DNA from: an uncultured Candidatus Saccharibacteria bacterium | GTDB lineage: Bacteria; Patescibacteriota; Saccharimonadia; Saccharimonadales; EFPC-124 | Reading direction: 5' to 3' | Assembly (NCBI GenBank): GCA_965225085.1 | Contig: CBDDBE010000003.1 | Coordinates: 1,023-65,022 of the forward strand | Length of the DNA stretch: 64,000 bases | Shown here: piece after piece, positions 13,128 to 13,226 of the stretch | Numbering within the stretch: position 1 is the stretch's first letter | How the letters are laid out: every line of letters begins with the position of its first letter | Program-made: the position numbers and the translations under genes | Notes under the pieces: generated by a model | What the model was told of the DNA's origin: nothing | Databases searched by the model: none | Seen by the model: the letters and a program-made list of their open reading frames with translations, nothing else

Positions 13128-13226
13128 CCAACCAGCCACTCTCTTTTTGTGAAACATCTGCGTTTCCCGCAGGCAGAGGCGCTGCTTGCGCCGAAGGCCG
13201 TTTCGTAAAAGAAAGTGGCTGGTTGG
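13128..13226 (+). repeat. structured palindromic element, copy A (conserved two-hairpin core inside a 20-bp copy-specific stem)
   Basis: Outer stem 13128-13147/13207-13226. Inner stem GAAAC/GTTTC. P1 CTGCG-TTTCC-CGCAG at 13158-13172. P2 GGCGC-TGCTT-GCGCC at 13178-13192, followed by GAAGGCC. The core aligns with copies B and C. Confidence 0.8.

What the first reader, a model, noticed from the sequence alone, without database searches (positions are those of the whole stretch)
13148..13206. Compensatory substitutions in all three helices of the element core; G-U pattern hints at the + strand for copies A and C
I aligned the three cores, reading B as its reverse complement. P1 is CTGCG/CGCAG in A, TTGCG/CGCAA in C and CGGCG/CGCCG in B. 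P2 is GGCGC/GCGCC in A versus GCCGC/GCGGC in B and C. The inner closing stem is GAAAC/GTTTC in A, GGAAC/GTTTC in C and ACAAC/GTTGT in B. Pairing is therefore kept while the sequence changes. The unpaired parts stay nearly constant: AT after the inner stem, loops TT(T/C)(C/T)C and TG(C/T)TT(T), and GA(A/G)GGCC before closure. This is the signature of selection on a folded single strand forming a three-way junction, not on a protein-coding or duplex-DNA motif. Strand evidence comes from the wobble pairs. In C, three junction pairs are G-T on the + strand (T19044-G19097, T19045-G19096, G19047-T19094) and would be A-C mismatches on the other strand. A has two such pairs (G13149-T13206, T13150-G13205). 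However, A's single outer-stem mismatch is C-A on + and would be G-U on -, so the strand call is suggestive, not clean. A possible loop-tail pairing (P1 loop TTC/CTC with GAA/GAG of the 3' tail) also seems to covary, but three sequences are too few to claim it.
Basis: seen in the sequence. Interest (0 to 1): 0.7.

Follow-up and report, generated by a model that had tools for sequence, protein, structure and literature searches.

The report
Branched-cap hairpin repeat of soil Saccharibacteria
The flagged sequence is one copy of a previously undescribed, scattered non-coding repeat in soil Saccharibacteria, in which a long hairpin with a copy-specific stem carries a nearly invariant three-way-junction cap; the base pairing is clearly under selection, but nothing shows it works as an RNA from the + strand.

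Summary
The window has three copies: A 13125-13229 (+), B 13239-13335 (core on -) and C 19022-19119 (+). Pattern scans found 11 more copies plus three decayed ones, in a Candidatus Saccharibacteria MAG and in soil or rhizosphere metagenomes. In 17 sequences 99.1% of helix cells pair, and 7 of 15 pairs show double (compensatory) changes. RNAalifold finds the same three-way junction. No Rfam family matches.

New findings:
- The outer stem (17-27 bp) differs completely in every copy. A roughly 60-nt cap is 85-100% identical.
- Syntenic relatives lack the whole hairpin at the A/B and C sites.
- Three relatives carry different-stemmed copies, in both orientations, right after lepA.
- Orientation is random relative to neighbouring genes and to GC skew.
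- Stem mismatches show no G-U versus A-C asymmetry.
- Neighbouring genes are functionally unrelated, and the window encodes no transposase.

My best reading is a REP-like dispersed palindromic element, selected as a folded single strand on either strand, whose cap is a recognition module. This is moderately confident only. Rivals are a strand-specific RNA and a cap that inserts into hairpin apices.

The parts
13125..13229 (+). Copy A, whole capped hairpin. Outer stem 13125-13147 / 13207-13229 (23 bp, 2 mismatches). Unpaired or wobble TGT/GTA 13148-13150 / 13205-13207.
   Evidence: I3; 82 bits
13151..13204 (+). Order of parts: inner stem GAAAC 13151-13155 pairing with GTTTC 13200-13204; AT 13156-13157; P1 CTGCG 13158-13162, loop TTTCC 13163-13167, CGCAG 13168-13172; junction GCAGA 13173-13177; P2 GGCGC 13178-13182, loop TGCTT 13183-13187, GCGCC 13188-13192; tail GAAGGCC 13193-13199.
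13239..13335 (-). Copy B, whole capped hairpin, with the cap read on the minus strand. Outer stem 13239-13258 / 13316-13335. Cap 13260-13314. On the + strand the cap reads ACAAC GGCCCTC GCCGC AAAACA GCGGC TCAGT CGGCG GAGAA CGCCG AT GTTGT.
   Evidence: I2; 81 bits
19022..19119 (+). Copy C, whole capped hairpin. Outer stem 19022-19043 / 19098-19119. T.G wobbles at 19044-19045 / 19096-19097. Inner stem 19046-19050 / 19091-19095. P1 19053-19057 / 19063-19067. Junction reduced to A19068. P2 19069-19073 / 19079-19083. Tail 19084-19090.
   Evidence: I1; 68.5 bits
18998..19126 (.). Intergenic space between the MacB/FtsX permease stop (19127) and the ATG of the 159-aa gene (18997). It is 129 nt here but 12-16 nt in six syntenic relatives. 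The extra DNA is copy C plus about 7 and 11 nt of flank. A TA dinucleotide occurs on both sides (TAG ... TAAGGAG).
13089..13408 (.). Divergent intergenic region between the P-type ATPase gene (start 13088, minus strand) and gpsA (start 13409). It is 320 nt here and holds A and B, against 85 nt with no hairpin in relative L012. The gpsA promoter-like site TTGCCA-17-TATGAT (13341-13369) lies downstream of B.

Best explanation
A, B and C belong to a small family of dispersed, non-coding 'capped hairpins' that I found only in Saccharibacteria-like sequences: one Candidatus Saccharibacteria MAG and soil or rhizosphere metagenome contigs.

Anatomy. Each copy is about 100-120 nt. It has a long outer stem of 17-27 bp whose sequence is unique to the copy. 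Next comes a small purine-rich internal loop (GA/GA, AGA/GAG or AA/GC). On top sits a roughly 60-nt cap that is nearly invariant: a 5-bp inner stem (ACAAC/GTTGT), AT, hairpin P1 (CTGCG-TTCCC-CGCAG), ACTGA, hairpin P2 (GCCGC-TGCTT-GCGGC) and GAGGGCC.

Shown:
- The three cap helices and the outer stem are kept by compensatory change.
- The hairpin as a whole is an insertion relative to related genomes.
- Copies sit in any kind of intergenic space: after genes, inside operons and between divergent promoters.
- Copies occur in either orientation relative to transcription and replication.
- Decayed copies exist.

Inferred. The element works like REP-type extragenic palindromes. What is selected is a fold that either strand can adopt when single-stranded. 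This could be ssDNA at the replication fork or an extruded cruciform. It could also be a harmless or stabilising RNA hairpin when read through by a neighbouring gene's transcript. The sequence-constrained cap would be the recognition module for a trans-acting protein encoded elsewhere in the genome. That protein would account both for the cap's conservation and for the rare appearance of new copies. The outer stem only has to pair and to be about two helical turns long, so it drifts to saturation through compensatory substitution or arm-to-arm correction.
For: Family and distribution:
- There are 3 copies in the window against 0.00 expected by chance.
- There are 2 copies in one Candidatus Saccharibacteria MAG out of 185,579 species genomes.
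- There are 8 real copies in soil and rhizosphere metagenome contigs.
- A further copy is in L019.
- Decayed copies are at L004 5404-5423, L013 727-796 and L016 17408-17465.

Structure: 99.1% of cells pair and 7 of 15 pairs are compensatory. RNAalifold gives the same junction. Folding with DNA parameters gives the junction on both strands with similar energy.

Stems belong to the element:
- No stem arm matches anything else in the held data.
- Element stems have a median of 22 bp against 13 bp for 28 plain perfect hairpins in 299 kb (p = 3e-6).
- A, B and L009 lie between divergent genes. The plain hairpins I checked in the window follow stop codons.

Insertion: six syntenic relatives have 12-16 nt where C sits, and L012 has 85 nt where A and B sit.

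No strand or gene tie:
- Orientation is 5 sense, 5 antisense and 4 ambiguous.
- GC skew gives 6 copies on the G-rich strand against 5-7 on the C-rich strand.
- Stem mismatches are 6 G.T against 5 A.C.
- Neighbouring genes are unrelated: ABC exporter, trehalase, ManC, NUDIX, GtrA, rplJ-rplL, lepA, ATPase, gpsA.

Constraint: at the lepA 3' site three genomes carry the element with three unrelated stems. Their four-fold codon sites are only 37-45% identical, which is near saturation. The caps stay about 90% or more identical.
Against: - No candidate partner protein was identified. The 64-kb window encodes only housekeeping genes, with no transposase, integrase, reverse transcriptase or Nop-domain protein.
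- No two copies share a stem, so there is no direct trace of a recent copy event. Mobility rests only on presence and absence between distant relatives (about 80% amino-acid identity).
- Purely selfish DNA is not kept intact in place. The contrast between saturated stems and conserved caps needs one of three things: a host-level function, gene conversion among caps, or a mechanism that moves only the cap.
- Cruciform extrusion with a 55-nt centre is kinetically unfavourable. I have no data on single-stranded DNA or on transcripts.
- The tandem G.A loops and the possible CCC/GGG loop-tail contact look RNA-like.
Confidence: 0.4

Rival explanations
1. Strand-specific structured RNA. The cap would be a functional RNA (a small stable RNA, a protein-binding module or a ribozyme) made from the strand on which it reads AACAT...GGCCGTT. 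The long stem would be a processing or presentation helix, for example an RNase III substrate about two turns long.
For: - Compensatory changes occur in all helices and the unpaired nucleotides are conserved.
- There are tandem G.A internal loops.
- The P1-loop CCC could pair with the tail GGG, with only wobble-compatible changes on this strand.
- The sense strand folds better in 7 of 11 copies.
- Copy C has three G.T pairs that would be A.C on the other strand.
- Stem length clusters near 22 bp.
Against: - Orientation relative to neighbouring genes is random, at 5 sense and 5 antisense. Copy C, L001, L002 and L005 would be transcribed as the reverse complement by their operon or upstream gene.
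- The conserved part contains no promoter, and none recurs in the unique flanks.
- Stem mismatches are symmetric, at 6 G.T and 5 A.C.
- No Rfam family matches, including all ribozyme classes, even at E up to 10.
- Hammerhead core motifs are absent.
- The lepA-site copies have opposite orientations with intact caps.
Confidence: 0.2
2. Cap-only mobile element. The roughly 60-64-nt cap ((R)A-ACAAC ... GTTGT-G(M)) would be a miniature insertion that targets the apex of pre-existing long hairpins such as terminators, in either orientation. Under this model the stems are host hairpins and the caps are young copies.
For: - These genomes are full of long perfect hairpins.
- At the lepA 3' site, L026 has a plain 17-bp hairpin with a 3-nt loop. 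L004, L005 and L019 have capped hairpins with three different stems, two orientations and different cap variants.
- Caps are identical between loci whose stems are unrelated (L002 = L006 = L007).
- A and C share derived cap features but have unrelated stems.
- A cap fragment lies beside a full copy in L004.
Against: - Syntenic relatives have no hairpin at all at the C and A/B sites.
- A, B and L009 lie between divergent genes and L011 lies between rplJ and rplL. Terminators are not expected there.
- Element stems are much longer than plain hairpins, 22 against 13 bp.
- The nucleotides between stem and cap recur (GA/GA, AA/GC), so they are not leftover random loops.
- No enzyme is known or was found for such a reaction.
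Confidence: 0.2
3. Ordinary explanation: these are just intrinsic terminators or chance palindromes that happen to look alike.
For: Several copies follow stop codons (L001, L002, L004, L005, L010, L019). B is followed by TTTATTTT.
Against: - A 55-60-nt branched centre is conserved at 85-100% identity across genomes, with covariation.
- There is no U-tract after A, C, L007 and others.
- Some copies lie inside operons or between divergent promoters.
- The chance expectation for the pattern is 0.00.
Confidence: 0.02

Closest known systems
REP / BIME / REPIN extragenic palindromes (mobilised by RAYT Y1 transposases)
   Same: Short, non-coding and multi-copy. Strictly intergenic. Hairpin-forming on either strand and found in both orientations. 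Tolerated in 3' UTRs and between cistrons. Lineage-specific in abundance.
   Different: REPs conserve the stem sequence (including a 5' GTAG head) and vary elsewhere. Here the stem is unique per copy and the branched apex is conserved. No RAYT gene was seen. Copy number appears low.
Bacterial MITEs (Correia/NEMIS, RUP, BOX, ERIC)
   Same: Roughly 100-150-nt non-autonomous repeats that fold into long hairpins when transcribed. They show presence/absence between relatives and leave decayed copies.
   Different: MITEs are defined by conserved terminal inverted repeats and target-site duplications. Here the termini are the least conserved part. A TA duplication is seen, ambiguously, at only one site.
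Integron attC sites and other folded-ssDNA recombination substrates (CTX phage attP, IS200/IS605 ends)
   Same: Structure is conserved rather than sequence, and compensatory change preserves an intrastrand DNA fold. Invariant AAC...GTT triplets close a helix.
   Different: In attC the conserved boxes are at the base and the variable part is at the apex, which is the opposite of this element. attC sites lie in cassette arrays next to intI. IS200/IS605 elements show replication-strand bias, which is absent here.
TIGR stem-loop arrays (Faure et al. 2025, PMC12045711)
   Same: Found in parasitic or CPR bacteria. Their stems are variable but always palindromic, and they have short conserved motifs in the loop.
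   Different: TIGR units are tandem arrays next to a tas (Nop-domain) gene, and their loops carry variable spacers. Here the copies are dispersed, the loop is invariant and no Nop-domain gene is in the window.
Three-way-junction ribozymes and RNA motifs in Rfam (hammerhead, twister-sister and others)
   Same: A three-way junction with conserved junction strands and short GC-rich hairpins.
   Different: No covariance-model hit even at E up to 10. The CUGANGA/GAAA core is absent. There is no consistent transcribed strand.

Membership tests
Any Rfam 15 family (4227 models, all ribozyme classes included) | Covariance-model score at or above the family's gathering threshold | tested here: not met
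   There were 0 hits in the window at gathering score. In 13050-13420 at E up to 10, the only hits were miRNA-precursor models at 19-30 bits against thresholds of 80-168.
Hammerhead ribozyme | Three-way junction with core strands CUGANGA and GAAA and a cleavage-site NUH | tested here: not met
   The junction strands are AU, ACUGA and GAGGGCC (reverse complement: GGCCCUC, UCAGU, AU). No hammerhead model hit.
REP / REPIN | Extragenic, multi-copy, hairpin-forming, present in both orientations | tested here: met
REP / REPIN | Stem sequence conserved among copies (REP consensus with GTAG head) | tested here: not met
   Outer stems share no similarity. Only the apex is conserved.
REP / REPIN | Cognate RAYT (Y1 transposase) gene in the same genome | not testable with these tools
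   None is present in the 64-kb window. The rest of the genome could not be fetched.
MITE | Conserved terminal inverted repeats shared by copies | tested here: not met
   The termini are the unique stems.
MITE | Target-site duplication flanking the insertion | tested here: inconclusive
   At site C a TA is present on both sides (TAG...TAAGGAG) when compared with empty sites. No other site could be resolved.
MITE | Presence/absence polymorphism at orthologous sites | tested here: met
   Site C is empty in L012, L013, L015, L016, L017 and L018. The A/B site is empty in L012.
Integron attC | R''/R' boxes (RYYYAAC / GTTRRRY) at the base of the hairpin, a variable apex, and cassette arrays next to intI | tested here: not met
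   AAC/GTT close the inner helix, not the base. GTTGTGA and GTTTCGT do not fit GTTRRRY. Copies are dispersed among housekeeping genes.
Intrinsic terminator | Hairpin with a short loop followed by a U-tract at a gene's 3' end | tested here: not met
   The centre is a 55-nt branched structure. The terminator scan reports none of the three capped hairpins as a terminator-like site: its only hit inside an element is the 7-bp P1 hairpin within B (13291-13309), and its other hits lie outside the elements. A, B and L009 lie between divergent genes.
IS200/IS605-type ssDNA elements | Orientation bias relative to the replication strand, and a Y1 TnpA | tested here: not met
   Six copies are on the G-rich strand and 5-7 on the C-rich strand. 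No TnpA is in the window.
TIGR stem-loop array | Tandem units with variable spacers in the loop, adjacent to a Nop-domain tas gene | tested here: not met
   Copies are dispersed with an invariant loop. No Nop-domain protein is in the window. The definition is taken from PMC12045711.

The most novel reading that the evidence does not exclude
The roughly 60-nt cap is a new kind of structure-guided element. One version is a miniature mobile unit that homes into, or builds, long hairpins irrespective of their sequence. The other is a protein-recognised branched module whose stem is freely 'programmable'. Either would be a mode of propagation or recognition with no described precedent in bacteria. 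It would explain identical caps sitting on unrelated stems, including three different capped hairpins at the same lepA 3' site.
Probability: 0.15. Interest if true: 0.8.

Novelty: new variant of a known kind. Interest (0 to 1): 0.55.

Why it matters
Saccharibacteria and other CPR bacteria have tiny genomes with little spare DNA, and I found no description of repeat families or structured non-coding elements in Saccharibacteria in the literature searches I ran. This family reverses the usual conservation pattern of bacterial palindromic repeats: the apex is conserved and the stem is free. It carries clean covariation support and tolerates insertion inside essential operons such as rplJ-rplL and an ABC transporter operon. 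If the cap is a protein-recognition module, finding its partner would reveal a new DNA- or RNA-handling activity in an almost uncultured phylum. If it is an RNA, it is a new motif class. In either case the covariance model built here gives a concrete handle for a genome-wide census.

Tried and rejected
- Known RNA family: Rfam at gathering score and at E up to 10 gave nothing.
- Stems as guides or spacers: stem arms match nothing else in about 300 kb of held sequence. Three stems have no exact match in IMG/VR viral contigs.
- Element carried by phages or plasmids: two pattern scans of viral contigs gave 0 hits. blastn of the consensus cap against the phage and plasmid collections gave only chance 25-nt hits.
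- Inverted duplication of the target flank (snap-back): neither arm of C resembles the empty-site sequence.
- IS200/IS605-like replication-strand bias: absent.
- Cis-regulatory leader or riboswitch: the neighbouring genes are unrelated and the positions are mixed.
- TIGR arrays: the architecture differs.
- An extra helix CU/GG around a GA/GA loop at the base of P2, predicted by RNAalifold: the only sequences that vary there (A and L001) break the pairs, so it has no covariation support.
- Model R1 was built with a structure string misregistered by one column. I discarded it, and R2 is the valid model.
- Literature searches for a described Saccharibacteria repeat or RNA motif found nothing relevant.

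Full report
**What is at the coordinates**

A second copy, B, lies 9 nt further on at 13239-13335, with its centre reading on the minus strand. A third copy, C, lies at 19022-19119. The inverted-repeat scan ranks these three as the longest hairpins in the 64-kb window.

- P1 is CTGCG/CGCAG in A, TTGCG/CGCAA in C and CGGCG/CGCCG in B.
- P2 is GGCGC/GCGCC in A and GCCGC/GCGGC in B and C. This is one flipped pair, not a different helix.
- The inner stem is GAAAC/GTTTC in A, GGAAC/GTTTC in C and ACAAC/GTTGT in B.
- The G.T pairs at 13149/13206, 13150/13205, 19044/19097, 19045/19096 and 19047/19094 are as described.

A pattern that leaves most stem positions free matches exactly these three places, against 0.00 expected. 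The folds have z-scores of -6 to -11.

**Relatives**

- One exact-pattern scan of 185,579 species-representative genomes found two more copies. Both are in a single Candidatus Saccharibacteria MAG.
- A looser pattern run over JGI metagenomes found nine loci. Eight of them are real copies, from soil, rhizosphere and litter samples.
- Walking into related contigs added a copy cut by a contig end (L019).
- Three decayed copies also turned up: L004 5404-5423, L013 727-796 and L016 17408-17465.
- Viral contigs, phage records and plasmid records hold nothing.
- Homologues of the flanking proteins are named Saccharibacteria or Saccharimonadales, so the host is a soil Saccharibacteria lineage.

**Anatomy from 12-17 sequences**

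The consensus unit is (G/A)A-ACAAC-AT-CTGCG-TTCCC-CGCAG-ACTGA-GCCGC-TGCTT-GCGGC-GAGGGCC-GTTGT-G(A/C).

- With 12 sequences, 99.4% of cells pair and 6 of 15 pairs carry a change on both sides. No shuffle out of 500 reaches these values, and slid registers pair in only 24-59% of cells.
- With 17 sequences, the figures are 99.1% and 7 of 15 pairs.
- RNAalifold predicts the same three-way junction without being told it.
- Unpaired positions are almost invariant.
- Between the cap and the outer stem lies a small symmetric purine loop that falls into recurring types: GA/GA, AGA/GAG and AA/GC.
A pairing of loop CCC with tail GGG is possible but has only one-sided changes.

The core observation of selection on an intrastrand fold is therefore confirmed and strengthened.

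**The outer stem**

It is 17-27 bp, near perfect, and completely different in every copy. The arms match nothing else in the data I held. Three of them have no exact match in viral contigs.

These stems are not ordinary terminators with something added.
- 28 plain perfect hairpins in 299 kb of these genomes have a median stem of 13 bp (maximum 20), against 22 bp for the element (p = 3e-6).
- The plain hairpins I checked in the window follow stop codons. A, B and L009 lie between divergently transcribed genes, and L011 lies between rplJ and rplL.

**Insertion state**

Six syntenic contigs from relatives (76-84% identical permease) have 12-16 nt between the permease stop and the next ATG. The window has 129 nt there, made up of copy C plus about 7 and 11 nt of flank. 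Neither arm resembles the empty site, and a TA dinucleotide lies on both sides.

In L012 the ATPase-gpsA spacer is 85 nt with no hairpin, against 320 nt in the window with A and B. So the whole hairpin, not just the cap, is extra DNA in the window's lineage.

At another site, directly after the lepA stop codon, the situation differs between genomes:
- L004, L005 and L019 each carry a capped hairpin. The three stems are unrelated, both orientations occur, and the cap variants differ.
- L026 has a plain 17-bp hairpin.
- L023 has nothing.
- L020-22 have another gene.

Four-fold degenerate sites of lepA are only 37-45% identical between these genomes. Neutral DNA is therefore near saturation, and unrelated stems are compatible with long drift in place, while the caps stay about 90% or more identical.

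**Which strand, and which molecule**

None of the tests favours a strand.
- Relative to neighbouring genes the cap is sense in 5 copies, antisense in 5 and ambiguous in 4. Copy C is antisense to its operon.
- Relative to GC skew, 6 copies are on the G-rich strand and 5-7 on the C-rich strand.
- Minimum free energy favours the sense strand in 7 copies and the antisense strand in 3.
- DNA parameters give the junction on both strands.
- No promoter lies in the conserved part. The only good promoter-like site near A and B is the gpsA promoter, downstream of B.
- Neighbouring genes are functionally unrelated.
- The window encodes no transposase, integrase, reverse transcriptase or Nop-domain protein.
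- Rfam has nothing.

**Interpretation**

The element behaves like a REP-type extragenic palindrome. It is multi-copy, intergenic, orientation-neutral, tolerated in transcripts and lineage-specific, and it leaves decayed copies. Its conservation pattern is inverted, however: the stem is free and the branched apex is nearly invariant.

The cap helices are conserved in sequence as well as in pairing, while the outer stem is conserved only in pairing and length. I therefore infer that the cap is a sequence- and shape-specific recognition module for a trans-acting factor, and that the stem merely presents it. Orientation does not matter, so the selected fold is probably one that either strand can adopt. 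That could be ssDNA or a cruciform, with RNA hairpins as a by-product. This part is inference, and I put it at about 0.4.

Two rivals remain open:
- A strand-specific RNA (0.2). It is weakened by random orientation and symmetric mismatches.
- A cap-only insertion into hairpin apices (0.2). It is attractive for the lepA site and for identical caps on unrelated stems. It is contradicted by empty sites that lack any hairpin, by copies at positions where no terminator is expected, and by the longer stems.

There is a real tension in the selfish reading. No two copies share a stem, so either all copies are old and the caps are kept in place by selection or gene conversion, or only the cap moves. 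A genome-wide census and comparisons between close strains would settle this.

**Limits**

- The exact-pattern scans miss divergent members, so the narrow distribution is a lower bound.
- No expression data were available.

Noticed in passing
L014 11315-11570: In relative L014, the same permease/next-gene junction that holds copy C in the window carries a different insertion: a long imperfect palindrome of about 250 nt (arms 11391-11434 / 11455-11498 and beyond). Unrelated hairpin insertions have therefore hit this junction at least twice.
   Followed up: partly
L004 5404-5423: A 20-nt cap fragment (AACAT plus the P1 hairpin) lies in the opposite orientation 16 nt from a full copy. It looks like the remnant of an older copy oriented as in L005, partly replaced by the present one.
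   Followed up: partly
L016 17408-17465; L013 727-796: Two decayed copies. L016 keeps AACAT, P1, the junction and half of P2 inside a 12-bp stem. L013 is a degenerate cap (20 bits) nested in a 16-bp inverted repeat at 520-535 / 800-815.
   Followed up: partly
window 13160-13305: A and B are inverted relative to each other and only 9 nt apart, so their caps can pair with each other into one long alternative hairpin. The Rfam miRNA-precursor noise hits pick this up.
   Followed up: no
window 4880-4915, 6987-7021, 29193-29232, 41973-42006, 46726-46753, 54705-54737 (and many in L012-L017): Gene 3' ends in these genomes carry long, near-perfect hairpins (12-20 bp, loops of 3-8 nt), often without a clear U-tract. 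This may be the local style of terminator.
   Followed up: partly
window 23839-23940: A 19-nt inverted repeat (84% complementary) with 64 nt between the arms encloses the ribosome-binding site and the ATG (about 23875) of the small gene after G6PD. It might sequester the start site.
   Followed up: no
window 1-64000: GC skew is positive in nearly every 2-kb bin, so the + strand is probably the leading strand. Gene content is core metabolism and housekeeping (pentose phosphate, glycolysis, pheST, uvrB, gatAB) plus four NUDIX genes and two TerC/DUF475 paralogues.
   Followed up: no
window 13341-13369: A strong sigma-70-like site, TTGCCA-17-TATGAT, lies immediately downstream of copy B. A TACAAT -10 box for the ATPase gene lies just left of copy A. 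The two elements sit exactly between the divergent promoters and replace the sequence found upstream of those promoters in L012.
   Followed up: partly
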